64,000 bases of DNA, from the NCBI GenBank assembly GCA_028534125.1, contig CM052816.1, forward strand, positions 87,422,001 to 87,486,000. Reading direction: 5' to 3'. Every line of letters starts with the position of its first letter. Position 1 is the stretch's first letter. The notes under the pieces are model-generated. The model made no database searches and had not been told where the DNA came from. It saw nothing but the letters and a program-made list of their open reading frames with translations. Positions 1 to 62,900 of this stretch are shown one piece after another. The DNA is from Lama glama (Eukaryota). The translations under genes were made by a program, and so were the position numbers.

Positions 1-160
1 ATTGTCTAGGAACTCACTGAAGAGGTAATCCCATCCTATAGCACAGGCTTAAATGCCATCTGAATGCCTCTTTCCCAATTGGTATCTTTGTCTCCTATCC
101 CTGTGCCAAGCATCAAATTCCAATTTCAGAATTCCTACTCAGGATTTCCACGTTCAAGTC

Positions 161-555
161 TGCATTAGTCCGCTTGGGCAGCCAGAACAACATACCAGAC
201 ACTGAGTGGCTTAAAAACAGAAACTTATTTTCTCACAATTCCAGAGGGTAAGAAGCCCAAGATTAAAGTGCTGGCTGGTTGGATTCCTGGTGAGAGCTTT
301 CTTAGCTTGCTGATGAATGTCTTCTTGCTGTGTACTCACGTGACTTCTTGGTACTGATACCGAGAGGGTGAGTTAGCTCCCTGGTGTCTCCTCTTGTGAG
401 GGCACTAATCCCATCATGAGGACTCCATCCTTAAGACCTCATCTAACCCTAATTACCCACCAAAGGCCCTAGCTCCAAATACCCTTATGTTGGGGGTTCA
501 TATTTCAACATATGTGATCCTTGAATTTTGGGGATCACACTTCTAGTCCATAGCA
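161..555 (-). mobile_element. MaLR solo LTR, MLT1A-like
   Basis: TG...CA ends (tgcattagtc ... gtccatagca); diagnostic ggcttaaaaacagaaacttattttctcaca and gggcactaatcccatcatgagg...ctcatctaaccctaattac; degenerate 5-bp flanks aagtc/acatc. Confidence 0.9.
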
Positions 556-892
556 ACATCTAATCATTTTAAGCACAACTTGTTCCAAAAAAACAAACTC
601 TTGATTTCTGCCCATTCTTACCACAACCTAAATAATTATATTAATTTTTAAAATCTTCATCTTAGTAAACTGTATAAGTATTCATTTAATTTTTAAGCAC
701 TTAGGGTCAACTCTGAAGCCTTGTTTCCCCGCCGCCCCCCACCACACACACAATCAGTGCCACTGCTGAGTCCACTGGCTTCAAAGCTTTAGTGTCTACA
801 TATAACTTTAATTCAGTCACTTTTCACTTCTACCATCCTTACCTTTGAGTCAGCCACTATTATCTTAGTCTCCAAACTGGTCTTTAAAAGAC

Positions 893-1037
893 CAATACTG
901 TCTCACTGTGGATAGTGTCCCTGATTCCCCCATAGGCTCTACAATTAAAATGAACCTCCCAGGATACACTAAAAAGGGGGAGTGAAGGCTTGTAAAGATT
1001 TGTCTTAATTGGCTCTGAGATTCAGTTTTGTTATCTG
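893..1037 (+). repeat. 145-bp dispersed direct repeat, copy 1 (inferred derived copy)
   Basis: Identical to 1853-1997 except one base (958 C vs 1918 A); offset 960 bp. Confidence 0.98.
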
Positions 1038-1852
1038 CTTCTACTTATATTTCCCTCCCCCAACAATTTATTGCACAATGGCCAGTTGCAAACCCTCCAA
1101 TGTCACTGTCAAAGTGCTTTCCATGGCTTAAAGCCAATGTCTGGCCTTGCCCCTCCATTTTTCTTTCTCATTATGCCCAGTTCACCCCAGTCATAGGGAC
1201 TTGGCATTTACCCAGCTCCCCCTTATACTTTATGGAGATCTTGGTTTAAATATCCTTGCTTCAGAGCTACATTCTCTAACTACTCTGTGAATAGCTCTTC
1301 CCTCTCCAGAAGAATTATCTTCATCCTTTGTTCATTTAATTTTATTTAAATCAGAACTGCTTCAACATACATGATACTGTATTGTATTGTTTGTCTTCCA
1401 AAATAAAATGCAATCCCCATGAGGGAGGCCCTACAAAAGCACCTGGTACCTAGGAGCCCTCAGTAAATATTTGTTTGGTGAGTGAATAAATGAAGGGAAG
1501 AAAGAATGTATATGGGCACATAAATTCACCCAAACTAACACATGTGTATAAAGGAGTTAAAACAATTTACATGAGGATATGCTAAGAGTGATATTTAGGG
1601 AGGAAAGTGAGGTATATCTGTGATTTATTTTAGAGTAATTTATTCATGCATATAACTTGGCTCATAAATGTAATAATCATTAGCTAGTTATGCCATTTGT
1701 ATTAGGATTCGGTACTGAAATTGTGTTCTCCCACTGAAATGATTAAAGGAATTAAAAAAAAAACACAATTTGAGTGTCAAGCTACCAAAAAATGGCTTTA
1801 AAGTTAAGACAATAATTTGGACAAATACTAATTATCTTTTCACCCCAAGATG

Positions 1853-1997
1853 CAATACTGTCTCACTGTGGATAGTGTCCCTGATTCCCCCATAGGCTCT
1901 ACAATTAAAATGAACCTACCAGGATACACTAAAAAGGGGGAGTGAAGGCTTGTAAAGATTTGTCTTAATTGGCTCTGAGATTCAGTTTTGTTATCTG
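1853..1997 (+). repeat. 145-bp dispersed direct repeat, copy 2 (inferred donor)
   Basis: caatactgtctcactg...ttcagttttgttatctg, 144/145 identical to 893-1037; lies in unique-looking sequence. Confidence 0.98.
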
Positions 1998-4869
1998 AAG
2001 AGAACAGAGAAGAATCAGTGTGAACACCTGGACTCGTGTCTGTGCAGGGTCCTGAGCTCCGAACGGAACAATTAAATGGCTTAATCTTAAAACCCTCTAA
2101 GGTGTAATTCAGTAGCTCTCTTTAGAAGACCATTGCTAATTCTTCCTAAATTGCTGCTGCTGCTAACTGCACTGCCTTAATTTGAACAGTATTCAAAATT
2201 CCATTCTTTCTAATGGAGTTAATTGCATTATGAAAGTCAGCTTAGAGTGGAAACTTGTTTCCTCTTGTGGAGTATCTCTCTATAGAGTCCTTTTTTCCCT
2301 CCCTTTCAACTTGACACCTGTGCACATTTATACAGAATAATGTTCACAGATGCACAGTGTGCCCTATTTAAACTAAATTTTAAAGACTATTCTTCAAAAT
2401 ATTTATAAATACACCAGGCCAGGTTAGCTCTCCGAAGTGCCTACAGTTTTGTACATGCTCAGGCCGTCTGATCCAATAGACTCTAAGTCCTTGGAACATT
2501 AACAAATCTCTGAGCTTTTAAATAGGCTGTGACCTATTCATTTAGAGGGCTACTTCAATAAAGCGAAGGCTCACTTAGGTTAATGATGGATCATGGAGCT
2601 ATTCGATTTGCAGTGAGCAAAGTTGCCCATTATCCCCTAACATTCGTGTGGGTCATGTTATCACAACCAAATAATGAGTCAAGCCCCTTCCCTGGTTCCT
2701 GTAGATTTCCAAGTCATTACAGGAAATCTTAGTGTGTAAGTCCATGAAGCTTTATGCCTGATAACTGCGGATGAATTACTATTTTTGCTGAGAGTATGAA
2801 ATTTCAGCGAAGGGTTCATTTCTCATGAGAACATCAGCAGCTTATTCAGAGTTCATGAGTATTTTGAACAGTAAGGCAGACATTCTCTCCATCTCCTCTC
2901 ACCCCCTCAGTTAAGCATCCTTCAAAGCATATTCTCATTTACCATCTACTCTTGCTCCCAGATGCATATTTACATGGAGATGCCCACAGACTCAGACAGG
3001 TAGACACTGAATCAATTAGTAATTTTAAAAAAGTTACCTTGATTATAAATGTCATATCAAGGAACCAAAAATCTGTTTTATGATACCGACATGGTGACTG
3101 TTTCCTTTACATGTCAGTTTTCTGTTAATACCATACAGTCTTTTTAGAGGCACATGTTCATGCTAAGAAATCTTTAAAATTAAGGAAAAGTCACTGGAAA
3201 TCTATTTTAAGTGTATTTCAAGTATTTCTGGGATGCCCTCACATTCCATGCTTACCACTCCTGTGTCCATGCGTGCACACACATACAAATGTTAAAAGCA
3301 ACTTCTTCAGTAAGATCTCTAAAGCTAGCTGTTTCTGATGCAAGACAATAAACCCTTTTGGCATTAATTGTTCCTAAAAATGAAATACTTCCACACTATA
3401 GAGAAAGCTATATAAAATATGAATGACAGGAAGAAAACAACTTCATTTATTCTTGCTCTGCGATTTATGGTGTGGAGATGGCAACCACGGGGGATGTGAA
3501 GAATGGCGAATTCTTCTGTGTTTGATGCTAATTTTACAGCACAGCACAAAAATAGAACATTGTGCCGTACTCTGGATTGCTAAGTGAGTTTGTTTAAAGG
3601 TGGTCGATTAGTTCATGTCACCATGGAGAGCTAGTACGTTATGAACGTCTTTACAAACAGACTTGGGGAAAATTCCCCACTATTGTGGATTCACAGAGGA
3701 TGATGCTGAAAAATTATTAGATTTTGCTTCCCAGTTACAAAGCTATGATTAATAACTTTAACACAGAGCCAAGATATTTTCACTAATGGTTACTTAACCA
3801 ATGTTTCGAAATATATTTATTCTTCCATTTTTTAATGCCAAGGAAGCTTTCGAACGCCATGAAAGAAGGTAATTAGGCTGAAAAGGTAGAGCCAACATTC
3901 TCTTATCAAGAACAAACAAAAAGTGTACCTATCATTCTCTGACAGAAGTTAGAGTAAATACATTACAAAGTATATGAAGGCATTTCCTAACTTTCTCTTT
4001 GGCTTATTACACATTGTTTAAAATGTGTTTAACTATATCAGGATATTTTTACCATGACAGAAATCAGTTTGAATATTTTTGATGGCCAATTACAAAAATA
4101 CCAAGACCTCTCATAGTCTCTATTCCCCTTCCTTTCTTTGTTTCTCAAAATATTTCCAACTTCATCTGTGGCCCCATGTTAAGAAATCCAGGTGGTTTAG
4201 CATTTCTAATTTTATTATAGAATTTCATCTTTATTTCTGGGGTGATCCCTCACCTTGTAACTTACCCTTCTAGAGCTGTCTTGCCTTATCCTTGACTTAC
4301 CGTGTACCCTTGACCTGTAAAGTCAGTGGGTCATTAGTTAACACTTGATTCCAGATAGTTTACTTGACCTTAGTCTGGTCCCTGTCTATTCGCAGCCTCC
4401 GTGATGGTGAGTGGCATTTCGGCACTCCCTGTGGAAGACTTGTGGGCCCTGTCTTTCATGGACAGCCTGATGTTGGATTACACAGCCCTCCTCTTGGGCT
4501 CTACAACCTGTCTCCATCCATGTTAACAGATTCACAGAATGTTCATTTTCCCCCTTATGTTGCCTACAGCATGTTTTTAGCTATCTACATTTAATAATTG
4601 TAGCCATCTGCCATTTAAAATACTTTTGAGATTAGTTATTTAACATTATTCATTTCAGGTGACATGTTTATATTTCAAAAGAAGCCATCTGGAGGTAATG
4701 TTTAATCCAAGTCATGACTAACAGAGTTTGGGATTCCATTACTGTTCCATGGATGCTATTTTGAGGATTTTTTTTTCTTTACAAATATAACTTGTTTGAT
4801 ATTTTCATCAGTTGTCATCTGATGTATTTTGTCACTTAGATGTTAATTGCTACTTTTCTTGTTTAAGTA

Positions 4870-5094: not shown

Positions 5095-6330
5095 TGATTG
5101 ACCCAGTTAATTTCTCTTATTAATACAATATTTTTCTTTCACTTGAATTTTCAGATAACTACAACTTTGGTCTGCCCTTTTTACCCCACTGGCAATCCCT
5201 TCTCAGTTTTATTTTCTGGTTTCTTCTTTTTCCCCTTAATATTGAATCAGCTTTGGGTTTTCTCCTGTCTGTCTACACCCACACATCCAAGTGATCTCAT
5301 CCAAGTTCATAGTTTTAAACACCATATGTTGACAGCTCCCAAATATATATCTCCAGCTCAGATCTCCCAAAATCTGATCTCCTATACCCAACTGCTTTTT
5401 TGGCAAATAATACACTTGTGTACCTAACCAACATCTCAAATTCACGTGTCCAAAATGAACTTTGAGTCATCAGTTACAAATATATTCTATTTTCAGATTT
5501 TACCATGTCTGTTGATAAACTCCATCCTGTTAGTTATTCAAGCTAAAATTTCTCAACTCTCTTACACCCTCTATTTCTCTCTAATCGTATATCTAATCTG
5601 CTAGGAAATCCTGTTGGCTATACTTCCAAAATGTATGTAGAATCTTTCCAATTTTCAGCAATTTCCCTGATCTCACCATGATGCTAGTAGTAGTAATTGC
5701 CCACATGAATGACTGCATCAGCCTCCTCACTTGATTCGTGCTAGCCCTCCAAAGATTAGCCTCAACAGCAAGGGTCATCCTTTGAAAAAAATGTCAGCTC
5801 ATGTCATCCCTCTGTTTAGAAGCCAACTGATAGCTCCCTATTTACCTCGGAGGAAATGCCAAGGGTCTGTATAATCTGTGCCCCCTCATCTTATTTCTGG
5901 TCTCTTCTCCTACATTCTTCCCCTTACTCATTCTACTTGCACAACTCCCCTTGCTTTTCTTGGAACTTACAAGTCTTATTCCCATCTTTGCTGGTCATTC
6001 CCTCTGCTGGAATTCTGTGGACCAGATGCCTACTTGCCTAGCTGCCTGCAGGCATCTTTGTGCAAGTCCCCCCTTCTCTATGAGATCTGTTCTTAACCAC
6101 TCTATTTCATAGTGCAAATTGCACAAAACCCTTAGGCAATACAACCACCTTTATCCTGTTCTACATTTTTCTTTTTCCACATCGTGTTTGTAATTTATTT
6201 ACACCTCTCCTTTCTGGAATATAGATGCTTGGAGAACAGGGATCTTTACATTTTGTGCACTGATCTATCTCAGGAAATAAGAACAGCATCTGGCAGACTA
6301 GCACATAGTATTTGATATATATTTGCATGT
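5095..6330 (+). mobile_element. L2 LINE fragment
   Basis: catctcaaattcacgtgtccaaaatgaact, aaatcctgttggctatacttccaaaatgtat, cagctcatgtcatccctctgtttagaa; 3' part ttttgtgcactgatctatctcagg...gcacatagta. Confidence 0.85.
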
Positions 6331-7266
6331 ACATTTTATATATATAAATAATTTAATGGCCAAATTTCTCCAGATTTCTCATATGACTTTAGTGTTTTAG
6401 AAGCATACAGGAATATATATTAGCCTGAGCACACATAGTCTTTTTTTAAAAGAATAAGAAACATAAATCACTTTATATTTTCATTTATAAGCAGAGCAAT
6501 GTGGCTAAAGTTTAAGACTGTGAAACAAAACGTCTGCACTCAGTTTGTTTGGATTTGTTTGTGTGTGACTGTAATTTTGTGATTTCAATTGCACTTGGTA
6601 AATTGAAATCAGAATTTGAACTTGATTGTTTCTAAGATCCCTTCTCTGTGATGGTGGAGGATGAGCAAGGTAAAGATTCTCTCTGTCTGATGCACTTTTT
6701 ACATTTAATATTCACGTACTTTACCCTTATACTCTTAGGTGTTTGGCTATTTACAGTGTGGATGTGCATGTATATGAGCACATGCATGCAGACACGGGTC
6801 TACCTATGTTTCTAAGTGATTGCTACTACGTTGACTTACAGCAAATGAGAGTATGTAAGTTCCCAGAGGCATAAGTCATTTCAAGTGTAAATCATGCATG
6901 GAAATATGTACACATAGACAGTGATGGGGAGAGAGGGAGAAGGAGAGATGGCAAATTTAGATGATTTTTCTGAAGAATAAGAATTATACCCATTTATCTG
7001 AATTATAAATATTTTCCACTTACAAATATTTAATACAATATTTAATCATTTATTTTTTTTTGTTGTTGTCACACAGAGAATCTATGGTACACCAAGAAAA
7101 GAGAAAGAGTAAAGGAACTATCAAATTTATTTCACAAGCAGCCTTACGTTAATGTAAAACAATATTGAAAGTAAACTTTAAGCTTAGATGGCAAACTTGC
7201 ATGAAAGGCTAAAATATATATATTTTGAAATATCTATCATCTTAGGTAAATTCCCTTTTATCTGAC

Positions 7267-9211: not shown

Positions 9212-10152
9212 CTTTTTTAAAAAAAATAGATATAATTGACATATAACATTGTATTAATTTTATATGTACAACATAATTTGATATATGTATGTATATATTG
9301 TGAAATGATTGCTACACGTTTAGCTAACATTCATCACCATAAATAGTTACAACTTTTTATTCTTGTGATGAGAACTGTTCAAATCTATTCTCTTAGCAAT
9401 TTTCAAACATACAATACAGTGCTGTTAACTATAGTCACCAAGATGTAAATTACATTCCATGACCTAATTATTTCATAACTGGTGATTTGTACCTTTTGAC
9501 AACCTTCTGCTCTTCCCCTACCCTCACCTCCTACCCTCTGCCTCTGGCAACTACCAATCTATTCTCTGTTTCTGTGAACTTTTAAATTTTTTTTGGATTC
9601 CACATATGGGTTAGATCATATAGTATTTGTCTTTCTCTGACTTGTTTCACTTCACATAATGCCTTCAAGATCTATCCATGTTATTGTACATGGCAGGATT
9701 TTCTTTTTCATGGCTGAATAATATTCTATTATATATCTATCATATTTTCTTTCCTCATTCATCTATTGCTGAGCACTTAGGTTGTTTCCATGTCTTTGCT
9801 ATGGTAAATAATGCTGCAATGAACACAGGGCTACAGGTATCTTTTTTTTGATAGTGATTTTGTTTCCTTTGTATACATACTCAGAAGTAGAATTTGGAGT
9901 CACATGTTCTGTTTTCAAATTTTTGAGGAATCTCATACTATCTTCCATAGTGGCTACACCAATTTACGTTTTCACCAACAGTGCACAAGGGTTCCCTTTT
10001 CTCCACATCCTTGGAAACATTTGTTTTCTTGGTTTTCCAATGACAGTCATTCTAGCAAGTATAAGGTGATATCTCATTGTGATTTGACTTGCATTTTCCT
10101 GATGATTACTAATGTTGAGTACCTCTTCATGTACCTCTTGTTCATCTGTATG
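9212..10152 (-). mobile_element. 5'-truncated L1 (L1MA9-like 3' UTR plus end of ORF2)
   Basis: gatataattgacatataacattgtattaatttt... 3' UTR; ORF2-like reading on - strand (9964-10158: ...TMRYHLILARMTVI...). Confidence 0.9.
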
Positions 10153-14747: not shown

Positions 14748-14815
14748 TTGCTTCTCCTCCAGTCTCTTACCTATTCAGTTATTGCTTCTCCTCCAGTCTC
14801 TTACCTATTCAGTTA
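14748..14815 (+). repeat. Perfect 34-bp tandem duplication
   Basis: ttgcttctcctccagtctcttacctattcagtta x2 (14748-14781, 14782-14815). Confidence 0.98.
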
Positions 14816-15603: not shown

Positions 15604-16657
15604 TTTTTTTATGTATATGTATTTATTGAAATATAGTCAGTTTACAATGTTGTGTCAATTTCTGGTGCACAGCACAATATAGGAACATACATATATTCAT
15701 TTTCATGTCCTTTTCCACCATAATTTACTGCAAAATATTGAATAGTGTTCCCTGTGCTATACAATATGAACTTGTTTATTTATTTTATATATCGTAGTTC
15801 ATATCTGCAAATCACGAACTCCCAATTTATTCCTTCGCACCCCTTTCCCCCTCCGGTAACAATAAGTTTGTTTTCTATATCTGCATATGGTATTTTTCTT
15901 TCTCTTTCTGGCTGACTTCACTTAGAATGATGATCTCCAGGTCCATTCATGTTGCTGCAAATGGCATTATTTTATAATTTTTTATGGCTGAGTAGTATTC
16001 CATTGTACATACATACCATACTTCTTTATCCAGTCATCTGTTGAAGGACATTTAGGTTGTTTCCATGTATAGACTATTGTAAATAGTGCTGTTATGAACA
16101 CTGGAGTGCCTGTATCTTTTTGAATTAAGGTTTCATATGCCCAGGAATGGGAATGCTGATTATATGGTAAGTCTATTTTCAGTCTGTTGAGGAATCTCCA
16201 TACTGTTTTCCATAATATCTACACCAAACTACATTCCCACCAATAGTGTAAGATGTAGGACGGTTCCTTTTCCTCCACAGCCTCTCCAGCATTTATCATT
16301 TGTGGACTTTTGAATGATGGCCATTCTGACTGGTATGAGGTGATACCTCATAGTTTTGACTTGCATTTCTCTGATAATTAGTGATATTGAGCATTTTTTC
16401 CTGTGCCTATTAGCCATTTTTATGTGTTCATTAGAGAATTGCTTATTTAGGTCTTCTGCCCATTTTTGGATTGGATTTTTGTTTTTTTTCTTACTCAGTT
16501 GTATGAGTTGTTTATTTATTTTGGAAATTAAGCCCTTGTCAGTCTCATCTTTTGCAAATATTTTCTCCTATTCTGTAGATTGTCTTATTGTTCTGCTTAC
16601 AGTTTCCTTTGCTATGCAAAAGCTTATAAGCTTAATTAAGTTCCATCTGTTTATTTC
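15604..16657 (-). mobile_element. Younger 5'-truncated L1 (camelid-type 3' UTR plus ORF2 C-terminus)
   Basis: ORF 16229-16417 (-) [48 protein letters not shown] is L1 ORF2-like; 3' UTR homologous to 42086-42926 but lacking ~60 bp near 15884. Confidence 0.95.
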
Positions 16658-17611
16658 AAGGCTATTAATATTTAACATTAATTATATACATTATGTAGCA
16701 GTATTCAGTAAAACATAGCACACACAAATTTAAAAAGGAATGCAGAATATATAAGGATTTTAAAAATTCTCTAATAGAAACCATTAATACTAAATTAAGG
16801 TAAATAATTGCATTTGGATTTTAAAATAAAATTTAAATATGCTTCACATTAAATTCAATTCTAAGGACAATTTGGAAAATCACTCACAATCTTTTTATTG
16901 GAATTATAGAAAATAATTAGATGAACTATATATAGAGCAGAAGTACATGAGAAGGAAGAGAGTTTATTAGATTTTAACATGAAAGAGAACACTGAAAACA
17001 GAAACTGCCTCTGTATTCTTTGTAATTGGATATTTTGCAGTTACAGTTGGGAATTAGAAATAATCATCATATTTAAAAACATATACATAAATAACTCAAG
17101 TCAAAGTTCTAGTTAGGGTTCATTTTTACTATGGGATAACATTCATTCATATACTAGGATATAACAAGTTATTGTATGTGTATATGATATATAGAGTTTT
17201 AGAGTTTTTAAACTACATGAATATTAATTTTTCTATTTTCATACACCTACTAGATAGAAATACATTAAAACTTTCCTTATAGAAATTATCTAATACAATA
17301 TTCAGAATAGATGAAAATTTGCTTTTTAGATTCACATGACAGCATTGTGTATTTTATATTCTTTACCATGAAATAATGGTTAAAATAAATAGCTCATGCT
17401 TATTAAGACTTTCAGGGATTAAATGAGAAGGAAATTAATTTAATTTGCAACATAAAGCTTTGATTTAATATTAAAAGATACAGTCAACCTCTAGTAGTGA
17501 TATGATAACTATTATACGTTCTAATAATTGACACATATATTCTATGCCAATTTAAATACAAAAAAATACCCCACTCTAATGTTATAGGATCCTTGGCTTC
17601 TCAGATTCATC

Positions 17612-21069: not shown

Positions 21070-22887
21070 AGTTTGTATCTCTTAATCTCCTTCTCCTAAT
21101 TCATCACTCCCGCACTCTCCTCTCCTCTGGCAGCCACCAATTTGTTCTCCAAATTGATGAGTCTGTTCTGTTTTGTTCATTTGCTTTTTAGATTCCACAT
21201 ATAAATGAAATCATATGGTATTTATTTTTCTCACTCTGACTTATTTCACACAGCAGGATACTCTCTAGGTCTAGGTCCGTTCATGTTGTTGCAAATGGCA
21301 AAATACCATTCTTTTATATGACTGAGTAATATTCTATCATATATATCTACCATATCTTTATCTGCTCATCTATTGATGTACACGTAGGTTGTTTCCATAT
21401 GTTGGTTATTGTAAATAATGCTGCACGAATATGAGGTTTCATGTATCTTTTCAAATTAGTATTTTCTTTTCTTTTTCAGATAAATACCCAGAAGTGGAAT
21501 TGTTGGATTGTATGACAGTTCTATGTTTAATTTTTTGAGGAACTTCCATACTGTTTTCCATAGTGGCTGTACCAATTTACATTCCCATCAACAATGCATA
21601 AGTCCCCCTTTTCACCACATCCTTACCAACACTTGTTACCTGTGTTCTTTTTGATAATATCCATTTTAACAGGTGTAAGATGATATTTCATTGTAATTTT
21701 GATTTGCATTTCCCTGATGATTAATGATGTTGAGCATCTTCTCATGTGTCTTTTGGTTATCTTCATGTCTTCTTTGGAAAAATGTCCCCTTAGTTTTTCT
21801 GTTCATTTTGTAATTGGATTGTTTTCTCAATACTGAGTTGTATGAGTTCTTTATGTAGTTGGGATCTTAACCCCTTATCAGACATATCATTTGCAAATAT
21901 CTCCTCTCATTCAGGAGATTTCCTTCTAATTTTGTTGAGTGTTTCCTTTGCTGTGCAAAAGCTTTTTAGTTTGATGTGGTCTCATTTGTTCAGTTTTGCT
22001 TTTGTTTTCTTTGCCTGTGGAGACGTATCCAAAAAAATATTGCTAAGACCAATGTCAAAGAGAATACTGTCTGCTTTCTTCTAAGGTTTTATGGTTTCAG
22101 GTCTTTCATTTATGTCTTTTAATCTGTTTTGAATTTATTTTTTATATGGTGTAAGAAAGTGGTCTGGTTTCTTTCCTTTACATGTAGCTGTCCAATTTTC
22201 CAACAGGATCTAATGAAGAGATTGTCTTTTCTCCATTTTATATTCTTGCCTCTTTTGTCATAAATTAATTGATATATGTGGGGGTTTACTTCTGTGCTCT
22301 CTATTCTATTCCATTGTTCTCTGTGTCTTTTTTTTTTTTTTGCCAGTATCATACTATTTTGATCACTATAGCTTTGTAATATACTTTGAAATCAGGGAGC
22401 ATGCTATCTCCAGCTTTGTCCTTCTTTCTCAAGAGTGCTTTGGCTGTTTGGGAATCTTCTGTGATTCCCTATAAATTTTGGGATTATTTGTTTTAGTTCT
22501 GTGAAAAATGCCATGGATATTTTGATAGGGATTGCATTGACTCTGTAGATTGCTTTGAGTAGTATGGGATTTTTAACAAAATTATTTCTTCCATTCCATG
22601 AGCATGAAATATCTATTTATTTATGTCTTCTTCAATTTCTTTTATGGGTGTTGTTATATGTCTTTAATCTCCTTAATTGCACTTATTCCTGAGAATTTTA
22701 TTCTTTTTGATTCATTTGTAAGCATAATTTTTAAAAAATGTTCTCTTTCTGATAATTTGTTATTAGTGTATAGAAATGCAACAGATTTCTGTATATTGAT
22801 TTTACATCCTGCAACATTATTGAATTCATTTATTAGTTTTAATAGTTTTTCAGTAGATTCTTTAGGGTTTTCTATATATAGAAGATC
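21070..22887 (-). mobile_element. L1 fragment (~1.8 kb; ORF2 3' part and partial 3' UTR, no visible poly(A) end)
   Basis: ORF 22119-22352 (-) ...[24 protein letters not shown]...WRKDNLF is L1 ORF2-like; continuous L1 motifs from 21130 to 22880. Confidence 0.93.
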
Positions 22888-36832: not shown

Positions 36833-37075
36833 TATGTGGTGTAGGACGTAAGTATAGGGTGAAGCCAATGTCATTGATTTCAAAGGGGTCTTCACTATCA
36901 ATAATGCGTTTAGTCTTAGTTACTCTGGAATAATTGCATTAGTAAAAAAGAGAAGAAAGTCCTTATCAAGTTTTTAGAAATGTTACTGAACTTAAGATGC
37001 ACATTTCTATCATCAGTAGGCCATTCACATTCTCAAGCCAGGTGTAAAAGAGTAAAATTTTACAAATTGATTCTT

Positions 37076-37263
37076 CTTTTTTTTTTTTTCCCATCTACAT
37101 ATCGTCTGTGGATGCTTTCTCTTTTATTTTCTTTACTGAAGTGCACTCAGTTACAATGTGTCAGTCTCTGGAGTACAGCACAATGTCCCAGTCATGCATA
37201 TACATACATATATTCGTTTTTCATGAAAGGTTATTACAAGAAGGGTCAAAAAAGAGTACTCAC
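37076..37263 (-). mobile_element. Very short young camelid-type L1 3' insertion with an extra 3' tag and candidate TSD
   Basis: tttactgaagtgcactcagttacaatgtgtcagtctctggagtacagcacaatgtcccagtcatgcatatac is homologous to the 3' ends at ~15620 and ~42115; T-run 37077-37089; attgattctt at 37066-37075 and 37264-37273. Confidence 0.85.
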
Positions 37264-42085: not shown

Positions 42086-42926
42086 TTTTTTTTGTATATA
42101 TATATATATATATTTTTATTGTAGTAAAGTCAATTTACAATGTTGTCAGTTTCTGGTGTACAGCACAATGCTTCAGTCATACAGGAACATACATATATTC
42201 ATTTTCATATTCTTTTTTACCATAAGTTACTATAAGATATTGAATATAGTTCCCTGTGCTATACAGTGTGAACTTGTTTATCTGTTTTATATATATTAGT
42301 TAGTATCTGTAAATCTCGAACTCCCGGTTTATCCCTTCCCACTCCCTTCCCCTCCTGGTAACCATAAGTTTGTTTTCTATGTCTGTGAGTCTGTTTCTGT
42401 TTTGTAAATCAGTCCGTCTTTTTTTTTTTTTCACATATAAATGACATCATATGGTATTTTTCTTTCTCTTTTTGGCTTACTTCACTTAGAATGACATTCT
42501 CCAGGTCCATCCATGTTGCTGCAAATGGCATTATTTTATTTTTATGGCTGAGTAGTATTCCTTTGTATAAATAAACCGCAGCTTCTCTATCTAGTCATCT
42601 CTTGATGGACATTTAGGTTATTTCCATGTCTTGCTATTGTAAATAGTGCTGCTATGAATATTGGGGTGCATGTATCTTTTTGAATTAAGGCTTCCTCTGG
42701 ATGTATGCCCAGGAGTGAGATTGCTGGATCATATGGTAAGACTATTTTTAGTCTTTTGAGGAATCTCCATGCTGTTTCCCATAATGGCTGCACCAAACTA
42801 CATTCTCACCAACAGTGCAGGAGGGTTCCCTTTTATCCACACCTTCTCCAGCATTTATCATTTGTAGACTTTTGAATGATGACCATTCGGACTGATCTGA
42901 GTAAGTAAGTTGCATCTCATTGCAAG
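42086..42926 (-). mobile_element. Young 5'-truncated camelid-type L1 with 13-bp TSD
   Basis: TSD aagattgcatgca at 42073-42085 and 42927-42939; T/(TA)n tail; ORF 42587-42796 (-) [33 protein letters not shown] is the L1 ORF2 C-terminus. Confidence 0.97.
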
Positions 42927-56500: not shown

Positions 56501-57723
56501 TAAACTCAAAATGGATTAAAGACTTAAATGTTAAAACCAAATACTATAAAACTCCTAGAGGAAAATATAGGCAGAACACTCTTGGACATAAATCACAGCA
56601 ATATGTTTTTTGAACCAGCTCCTGGAGTAATGAAAATAAAAGCAAAAATAAACAAATAGGATCTAATTAAACTTAAAAGCTTTTGCACAGCTAAGGATAC
56701 CACCAACAAAACAAAAAGACAACCTGCAGAATGGGAGAAAATGTTTGCAAATGATGTGACTGACAGGGACTAATTTCCAAAATATACAAACAATTCATGC
56801 ACTTTAATATATTAAAAAAAAAGGCAACCCAATCAAAAAATTGGCAGAAGACCTAAATAGACATCTCTCCAAAGAAGATATACAGATGGCCAACAAGCAC
56901 ATGAAAAGATGCTCAGCATCACTCAATTGTTAGAGAAATGCAAATCAAAACTACAATGAGGGATCACCTCATACCAGTCAGAATGGCCATCATTAAAAAG
57001 TCTACAAATGATAAATGCTGGAGAGGGTGTGGAGAAAAAGGAACCCTCCTACACTGTTGGTGGCAATGTAAATCGGTACAGCCATTATCCAGGACATTAT
57101 AGAGGTTCCTTAAAATCTAAAAATAGACTAACCGGATGATCCAGCAATCCCACTCCTGGGCATATATCTGGAGAAAAATATAATTCAAAAAGACACATGC
57201 ACCACAATGTTCACAGCAGCACTATTTGCAATAGCCAAGACATGGAAGCAATCTAAGTGTCCATTGACAGATGACTGGGTAAAGAAGATGTGGTATATAT
57301 GTAGAATGGAATACTACTTAACCATAAAAAACAATAAAATAATGCCACTTGCAGCAACATGGATGGACCTGGAGATCGTTGTTCTGGGTGAAGTAAGCCA
57401 GAAAGAGAAAGAAAATTGCCATGTGGTATCACTTATATGTGGAATCTGAAAAAAAATGACACAAACGAACTTGTCTACAGATTACAAGCAGACTCACAGA
57501 CCTGGTGAACAAACCTGTGGTTACTGAGGGGTTGGGGGAGGTGGGAGGAGATAAACTGGTAATTTGAAGATTGCCCCTCTTGGGGAGTGATGGAAATGTT
57601 GGCTGTCTCAATTGTGGTAGTGGTTTCATTGGTGTATACGTCTATCAAAATTGATCAAGTTATACATTTGAAAGATGTGTAGTTTACTGTAGAGGAATCA
57701 TACCATAATAAATGTATTAACAG
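56501..57723 (+). mobile_element. Chimeric L1 insertion: young camelid-type L1 ORF2/3' UTR (56501-~57575) fused to an old L1MC/MD-type 3' end (~57578-57720), with 16-bp TSD
   Basis: ORF 57207-57449 MFTAALFAIAKTWKQSKCPLTDDWVKKMWYI is the L1 ORF2 C-terminus; tagcctatcattttga at 56485-56500 and 57724-57739; AATAAA at 57707-57712. Confidence 0.92.
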
Positions 57724-62695: not shown

Positions 62696-62789
62696 GAAGA
62701 AAAAGAAAGAGAGAGAGAGAGAAAGGAAGGAAGGGAAAGAAAGGAAAGAAAGGAAGAAAGAAGGAAAGAGAAAGAAAGAAAGAAAGAAA

Positions 62790-62849
<60 letters not shown>

Positions 62850-62866
62850 GGAAGGAAGAAAGAAAG

Positions 62867-62897
<31 letters not shown>

Positions 62898-62900
62898 AGG
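62696..62900. repeat. Compound (GAAA)n/(GA)n/(GGAA)n microsatellite; 205-bp pure purine tract
   Basis: No pyrimidine between 62696 and 62900; explains the K/E/R- and F/L/S-rich ORFs. Confidence 0.99.

What the first reader, a model, noticed from the sequence alone, without database searches (positions are those of the whole stretch)
878..1997. Locally templated 145-bp insertion with a fold-back junction: a readable template-switch repair scar
Seen: 893-1037 and 1853-1997 match at 144/145 bases. Copy 1 sits inside an L2 that resumes colinearly across it (ctccaaactggtct | ctgcttctact, compared with the remembered L2 motif ctcctaactggtctccctgcttccact), so it looks inserted rather than overwritten. 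The left junction is a perfect hairpin, tggtcttt-a-aaagacca (878-894), whose last 2 nt (ca) are also the first 2 nt of the donor. The right junction shares ctg with the L2. There is no poly(A), TSD or TIR. Inference: snap-back synthesis at a broken end, a switch to a template 960 bp downstream, then a return by microhomology, as described for polymerase theta-mediated end joining and FoSTeS/MMBIR. One mismatch suggests a recent event.
Basis: partly seen in the sequence, partly recalled or inferred. Interest (0 to 1): 0.72.

Follow-up and report, generated by a model that had tools for sequence, protein, structure and literature searches.

The report
Local duplication left by DNA repair
A 145-base piece of a mammal's chromosome was copied into a spot about one kilobase away, most likely while a DNA break was being repaired; such scars are a known and common kind, and nothing suggests that this one has a function.

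Summary
893-1037 and 1853-1997 match at 144 of 145 bases, their flanks are unrelated, and there is no poly(A), TSD or TIR. An 8-bp inverted repeat sits on the left junction; 27 of 5000 random sites do as well. Copy 1 is probably the inserted one: its G:C balance differs from its own flanks (p=0.002) but not from copy 2's (p=0.88). The L2 identity is recalled only; my alignment test failed.

This fits the repair-mediated duplications (RDs) of Pace et al. 2009 (PMC2671141): median 147 bp, donor under 5 kb away, microhomology plus filler, hundreds per mammalian genome. Their first pictured RD also has an inverted flank copy in its filler (seen by eye). Snap-back for the 7-nt filler is likely. Polymerase theta alone fits a 142-nt tract from 818 bp away poorly, and sequence cannot name the enzyme. 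Age is loose (0.04-9 My). No junction-spanning reads, outgroup or genome-wide copy number were obtained. The scan noted a like scar before, in an Alu (e1-613054). Verdict: a new member of a known kind, low interest.

The parts
558..885 (+). Left flank; pyrimidine-rich, L2-like 3' region (family recalled, not tool-confirmed; start approximate)
   Evidence: GC skew -0.45; alignment to a second L2-like stretch not above shuffles
878..894 (.). Perfect inverted repeat, 8-bp arms and 1-nt spacer (folds as a 7-bp stem with a 3-nt loop)
886..892 (+). 7-nt filler: one A plus the reverse complement of 880-885
   Evidence: the 8-mer 887-894 recurs within 1-3000 only as the inverse at 878
893..894 (+). 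2-nt overlap shared by the inverted arm and the donor start
893..1037 (+). Copy 1 (probable acceptor); net insertion 886-1034, 149 nt, if the last 3 nt belong to the host repeat
   Evidence: G:C 30:28 vs flanks 79:183, p=0.002
1035..1037 (+). Probable 3-nt microhomology at the return junction
   Evidence: shared with the donor end; its assignment to the L2 is recalled, not tested
1035..1500 (+). Right flank; L2-like 3' part and tail (family recalled; end approximate)
   Evidence: GC skew -0.36 over 1035-1390, alike to the left flank, p=0.50
1847..1850 (+). 4-nt match to filler bases 888-891, two bases upstream of the donor start: a possible bulged priming site, or a slightly longer original copy
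   Evidence: 4.3% of 52,451 random sites do as well
1853..1997 (+). Copy 2 (probable donor); composition continuous with its flanks
   Evidence: G:C vs flanks 121:118, p=0.88

Best explanation
A germ-line repair scar of the proximal repair-mediated duplication (RD) kind. A break fell in an old repeat after base 885 (inferred). The left 3' end made a 6-8 nt inverted copy of its own last bases, by snap-back or an inter-strand switch (product shown, route inferred). The new end primed on 2 nt of homology, perhaps helped by a 4-nt match two bases upstream, at a site 818 bp beyond the break. About 142 nt were copied in direct orientation (product shown). The end then came off and re-annealed at the far side of the break on 3 nt (inferred), so little or none of the host repeat was lost. 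The template was the resected far end of the same break, or the sister or homologue. The simplest enzyme model is a short error-prone start (Pol theta-like) handed on to a processive polymerase (Pol delta-like), but sequence cannot name the enzyme. The product is neutral: no function is evident.
For: Sharp 144/145 duplicate with unrelated flanks. Polarity from composition: insert vs own flanks p=0.002, vs donor flanks p=0.88, left vs right flank p=0.50; 5 of 430 random segments are as extreme. Inverted arm at 1 of 4 junctions, 27/5000 by chance. No poly(A), TSD or TIR. Size, distance and junction type match Pace et al.: median 147 bp, peak about 1.2 kb, filler in 25 of 39 proximal cases, none with poly(A). 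Their first Figure S1 case has an 8-nt inverted copy of the left flank inside its filler (by eye; 1 of the 5 complete cases seen, 2 of 24 parts). De novo microhomology by snap-back is the SD-MMEJ model. Pol theta-to-Pol delta hand-over with fold-back switching and insert medians of 155-234 bp is reported in human cells. The locus as a whole is real DNA: leaving out the possible source, 19 runs in 9 studies hold 0.83-0.96 of its words.
Against: No junction-spanning read or contig and no empty orthologous site were seen. Word shares only weakly favour two copies: likelihood ratio 2-13 for the best holder (the possible source), 0.3-6 for the 0.96 group, on an assumed sampling model. The L2 test with a second L2-like stretch failed: no part beat shuffles, and the 885|1035 cut ranked about 3480 of 5000 under an over-permissive score. 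The composition signal lies mostly in the 3' half of the insert (best segments 962/976 to 1012/1037), and the statistic was chosen after seeing the data. The filler can also be read as donor sequence with two changes (4.3% by chance). Genome-wide copy number is unknown (no genome held).
Confidence: 0.8

Rival explanations
1. Same RD, but no fold-back during repair: the inverted repeat was already in the host repeat (it also spells the recalled L1 endonuclease site TT/AAAA at 884-889 and may have drawn the break), or the filler is donor sequence 1847-1852 with two later changes.
For: 4-nt match of the filler to 1847-1850. Pace et al. link RD rates to L1 activity. An 8-bp arm with a 1-nt spacer cannot pair fully as a hairpin.
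Against: The donor-extension match is a 4.3% event; the inverted arm is a 0.5% event, about 2% over four junctions. TTAAAA occurs 207 times in the window and follows automatically from inverting a TTT end. By recall the L2 has no room for 886-892.
Confidence: 0.08
2. Assembly or library artefact: a chimeric molecule with a fold-back and a local strand jump entered the consensus.
For: Fold-back chimeras are a known library artefact (recalled). Junction support was not obtained. P(best holder loses 5 or fewer words | insert absent) = 0.058, which is not negligible.
Against: The copies differ at one base. The insert falls in register inside a repeat (recalled). Likelihood ratio 2-13 for two copies in the best holder. 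11 of the other 19 holders, in 6 studies and 4 organism labels, lose only 6-7 of 164 words where about 9.8 depend on the insert.
Confidence: 0.06
3. Replication-fork template switching (FoSTeS, or short-range inter-strand switches) without a two-ended break: the nascent strand reversed for a few bases, jumped 818 bp ahead, copied 142 nt and returned.
For: It gives the same product. Short inverted copies in human genomes appear to arise inter-strand (PMC5453318).
Against: Cannot be told from the best explanation by sequence; it is a different route to the same class of scar and overlaps with it. The four-point model is restricted to single short-range switches.
Confidence: 0.2
4. Retrocopy or small mobile element, or the remnant of an old 960-bp tandem duplication homogenised by gene conversion.
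For: The length suits a small RNA or MITE, and TT/AAAA lies at the left junction.
Against: No poly(A/T) of 5 or more, no TSD, no TIR. No Rfam family on the first 125 nt of the donor (1 chance match, E 1.6, outside the donor). Two copies in 64 kb. Flanks are at background identity.
Confidence: 0.03

Closest known systems
Repair-mediated duplications (RDs), Pace, Sen, Batzer and Feschotte 2009, PMC2671141 (read: main text parts 1-6 of 8, passages, Figure S1 parts 1-2 of 24); related 'doublets' of Thomas et al., known here only as cited there
   Same: Insert of 149 nt (their median 147), donor about 1 kb away (peak about 1.2 kb, under 5 kb), inside an apparently interrupted TE, microhomology plus filler, no poly(A). 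They found 179-266 each in cow, dog, mouse and rat (0.18-0.26 per Mb of TE DNA). Their first pictured case has an inverted flank copy in its filler.
   Different: They ascribe RDs to SDSA and do not discuss inverted fillers ('inverted' and 'hairpin' occur 0 times in the main text). Here the empty site and genome-wide uniqueness are not shown.
SD-MMEJ snap-back and Pol theta templated insertions (TINS): PMC5728401 and PMC7165422 (passages); PMC2943611 (search listing only)
   Same: Inverse-repeat filler copied from the immediate flank, creating new microhomology, with several rounds of priming and 2-3 nt homologies.
   Different: TINS templates lie typically within 30 bp and first tracts rarely exceed 10 bp; distal templates were under 0.1% of repair. 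The 142-nt tract from 818 bp away falls outside this.
MM-BIR/FoSTeS templated insertions, including mitotic Pol theta + Pol delta MM-BIR (PMC13065848, passages); yeast Pol delta fold-back inversions (PMC11724301, passages)
   Same: Inserts of median 155-234 bp with about 2-bp overlaps and fold-back switching; short fold-backs, mostly under 14 bp.
   Different: Those are induced, mostly complex, many-segment events at telomeres or cut sites. This is one simple two-segment event, apparently inherited.

Membership tests
Repair-mediated duplication (Pace 2009) | Insertion of at least 50 bp | tested here: met
   145-nt copy, 149-nt net insert
Repair-mediated duplication (Pace 2009) | Donor more than 50 bp and less than 5 kb from the acceptor | tested here: met
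   815 bp between the copies, 960 start to start
Repair-mediated duplication (Pace 2009) | Flanks not duplicated with the insert | tested here: met
   5-23 of 50 identity in 12 of 12 flank blocks; no flank hit in blastn or nhmmer
Repair-mediated duplication (Pace 2009) | Interrupts one TE whose two parts are within 30 bp on the consensus | tested here: inconclusive
   No repeat library on hand; surrogate alignment not above shuffles; composition supports one interrupted element; family recalled as L2
Repair-mediated duplication (Pace 2009) | Only one other copy in the genome | not testable with these tools
   Two copies in 64 kb; no genome held
Repair-mediated duplication (Pace 2009) | Microhomology, filler or deletion at the breakpoints; no poly(A/T) of 5 or more | tested here: met
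   7-nt filler, 2-nt overlap, longest A/T run 4; the 3-nt right microhomology rests on recall
Repair-mediated duplication (Pace 2009) | Empty orthologous site in an outgroup | not testable with these tools
   No outgroup sequence or junction-level read data obtained
Pol theta TINS / SD-MMEJ snap-back | At least 5 bp copied as an inverse repeat of the flank | tested here: met
   8-bp arm at 887-894
Pol theta TINS / SD-MMEJ snap-back | Template typically within 30 bp, tract rarely over 10 bp | tested here: not met
   Met by the filler, not by the 142-nt tract 818 bp away (criteria)
Pol theta TINS / SD-MMEJ snap-back | Genetic dependence on POLQ | not testable with these tools
   Needs mutants; fold-backs also form through Pol delta in yeast
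L1-mediated retrocopy (TPRT) | Poly(A) tail and target-site duplication | tested here: not met
MITE / DNA transposon | Terminal inverted repeats | tested here: not met
   only one 5-nt internal match
Known structured RNA (Rfam) | Match to a covariance model | tested here: not met
   (first 125 of 145 donor bases scanned): 1 match, E 1.6, outside the donor

The most novel reading that the evidence does not exclude
The fold-back was the targeting step. It built a new 3' end that pairs with the donor through 2 terminal bases plus 4 more across a bulge (1847-1854), perhaps anchored by an 11-of-12 match upstream (856-866 vs 1827-1838), on the resected far end of the same break. If inverted fillers are enriched among germ-line RDs in general, the class long ascribed to SDSA would be a fossil record of Pol theta-initiated, Pol delta-extended end joining, datable across mammals. 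My searches found no paper counting inverted fillers among RDs, but the library lacks most subscription papers.
Probability: 0.2. Interest if true: 0.35.

Novelty: new member of a known kind. Interest (0 to 1): 0.17.

Why it matters
As a single locus it matters little: at the published density about 1-2% of 64-kb windows in a non-primate mammal should hold such a duplication, and nothing points to a function. It is a clean teaching example, and if polymorphic or lineage-restricted it is a homoplasy-free marker. Its one useful lead is a cheap genome-wide question: how often RD fillers are inverted copies of the flank. That count would bear on whether germ-line RDs come from SDSA or from microhomology-primed end joining.

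Tried and rejected
No whole genome is held for this window, so copy number and orthologues were not tested. No read- or contig-level view of the junctions was obtained, which leaves artefact and polymorphism open. Word shares of public runs were turned into likelihood ratios: too weak to decide, and they assume uniform sampling of words. Three rows with share 0.00 were not used. Testing L2 contiguity against a second L2-like stretch (5280-6340) failed under three scoring schemes: no part beat 300 shuffles, and the first scheme was too permissive to mean anything. blastn and nhmmer found no other window homologue of either flank. Pfam on 8 chosen frames of the 47 listed gave 1 weak hit (E 0.24), so neither the L1- nor the L2-like reading was confirmed there. 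Rfam: 0 matches at gathering score downstream of the donor, 1 chance match upstream. No look-alike stretch in the scan's earlier findings. The 11-of-12 upstream match (29 of 1547 windows do as well, found post hoc) is not counted as evidence. Retrocopy, MITE, and old tandem duplication with conversion were rejected. The L1 endonuclease-like site was not counted as independent evidence (207 in the window). 22 of 24 parts of Pace Figure S1 and Table S1 were not read and may hold more inverted fillers.

Full report
Observation. The window is mammalian-type DNA (35% GC or so; public runs that hold the locus have about 2.0-2.1 Gb of contigs; the L1-, L2- and MLT1-like repeats are named from recall). 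893-1037 and 1853-1997 are direct copies with one mismatch in 145, the only two copies in 64 kb. Outside them identity on the same diagonal is 5-23 of 50 in 12 of 12 blocks, so this is not the core of an older, longer duplication. A survey with 20-nt exact seeds gave 12 rows: this pair, one 34-nt tandem duplication and 10 matches among L1-like fragments.

Left junction. 878-885 is the exact reverse complement of 887-894. As a molecule it folds to a 7-bp stem with a 3-nt loop. Eight such repeats (arm 8, spacer 1 or less) exist in the window, this one included. 27 of 5000 random sites have an arm of 8 or more nearby, and the other three junctions have arms of 2-3. So the coincidence is about 0.5%, or 2% over four junctions. 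The 7-nt filler is one A plus the inverse of 880-885, and the arm's last 2 nt are the donor's first 2. A rival reading exists: 4 filler bases match 1847-1850, two bases before the donor start, which 4.3% of 52,451 random sites would do. Both can be true if the folded-back end primed across a bulge. There is no TSD, TIR or A/T run over 4.

Which copy is new. No repeat library or outgroup was on hand. By recall the flanks of copy 1 are the 3' part of an L2 that resumes in register, but aligning them to a second L2-like stretch (5280-6340) did not beat 300 shuffles under any of three schemes. An independent hint comes from composition. The insert has G:C 30:28, its flanks 79:183 (p=0.002), the donor's flanks 121:118 (p=0.88), and the two flanks of copy 1 agree with each other (p=0.50). 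5 of 430 random segments are as extreme, and the signal lies mainly in the insert's 3' half. This supports, but does not prove, copy 1 as acceptor.

Is it real DNA. Of 23 runs listed, 20 hold 0.83-0.97 of the 164 sampled words of 600-2300. Leaving out the possible source, these are 19 rows in 9 studies, 11 of them at 0.96 in 6 studies and 4 organism labels. That shows the locus, not the junctions. 95 of 1587 distinct 31-mers depend on the insert, about 9.8 sampled words; the best holder lost 5 and the next group 6-7. Likelihood ratios for two copies are 2-13 and 0.3-6 on an assumed sampling model: weak. No junction-spanning read or contig was seen, so artefact (about 6%) and polymorphism stay open. 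One mismatch gives 1.6 My, 95% range 0.04-8.7 My, at the rate used by Pace et al..

Mechanism. Shown: the product (host flank, inverted filler, 2-nt overlap, direct copy of a segment 818 bp beyond the break, return to the host flank). Inferred: a break after 885, brief inverted synthesis, priming on microhomology, about 142 nt of synthesis, release and re-annealing on 3 nt. Snap-back that creates new microhomology is the SD-MMEJ model (PMC5728401, passages). Pol theta insertions, however, are typically templated within 30 bp, in tracts rarely over 10 bp, and distal templates were under 0.1% of repair (PMC7165422, passages). Short fold-backs form in yeast through Pol delta (PMC11724301, passages). 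Short inverted copies in human genomes seem to arise inter-strand (PMC5453318, passages). A Pol theta start handed to Pol delta, with fold-back switches and inserts of 155-234 bp median, is reported for mitotic MM-BIR (PMC13065848, passages). So the filler works like a TMEJ snap-back and the long tract like SDSA or MM-BIR; the enzyme cannot be read from the sequence.

Comparison. Pace et al. 2009 (PMC2671141; parts 1-6 of 8 read) searched for exactly this: TEs interrupted by a copy of nearby DNA. They found 824 in human and 179-266 in cow, dog, mouse and rat, of median 147 bp and peak distance about 1.2 kb. 25 of 39 inspected proximal cases had filler and none had poly(A). Four of their criteria are met here, one is inconclusive (consensus contiguity) and two could not be tested (genome-wide uniqueness, empty site). 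Their main text never uses 'inverted' or 'hairpin'. Yet the first case in Figure S1 carries an 8-nt reverse complement of the left flank's end inside its 20-nt filler (by eye; 1 of 5 complete cases in the 2 of 24 parts read). The fold-back junction therefore has precedent within the class. At their density 1-2% of 64-kb windows should contain an RD. The scan's notes list like scars elsewhere (unchecked), and none on look-alike DNA.

Verdict. A real-looking, well-preserved, apparently neutral RD with a fold-back filler: a new member of a known kind, interest 0.17. The boldest reading not excluded is that the fold-back built the primer that chose the donor, and that such fillers mark RDs in general as microhomology-primed end-joining products (probability 0.2, interest 0.35).

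Noticed in passing
window 14748-14815: Perfect 34-nt head-to-tail duplication, no mismatch: a young tandem duplication, possibly polymorphic.
   Followed up: partly
window 856-866 and 1827-1838: 11-of-12 match (one gap) upstream of both left junctions; 29 of 1547 random windows score as high. Possibly an annealing anchor, more likely chance.
   Followed up: partly
window 884-889: The left junction spells TT/AAAA, the recalled L1 endonuclease site; expected from inverting a TTT end, and 207 such hexamers occur in the window.
   Followed up: yes
window 5280-6340: Second L2-like stretch on the same strand (family recalled); too diverged to align with the one at 558-1500 above shuffles.
   Followed up: yes
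window about 9590-10020, 15610-16660, 21170-22070, 37060-37220, 42100-42900, 56570-57470: Related interspersed repeats, 60-93% alike, the last in opposite orientation; recalled as L1 3' ends of different ages. Pfam gave no hit on the two frames tried.
   Followed up: partly
window about 160-560: MLT1-like LTR remnant just left of the L2-like stretch (recalled, not tested).
   Followed up: no
runs X15-X20: Six rows under one organism label hold only 0.83-0.93 of the words while others under that label hold 0.94-0.96: a divergent haplotype, an empty allele or lower coverage. These would be the first to check for the empty site.
   Followed up: no
window 62702-62898: Long AAAG microsatellite, about 50 units.
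   Followed up: no
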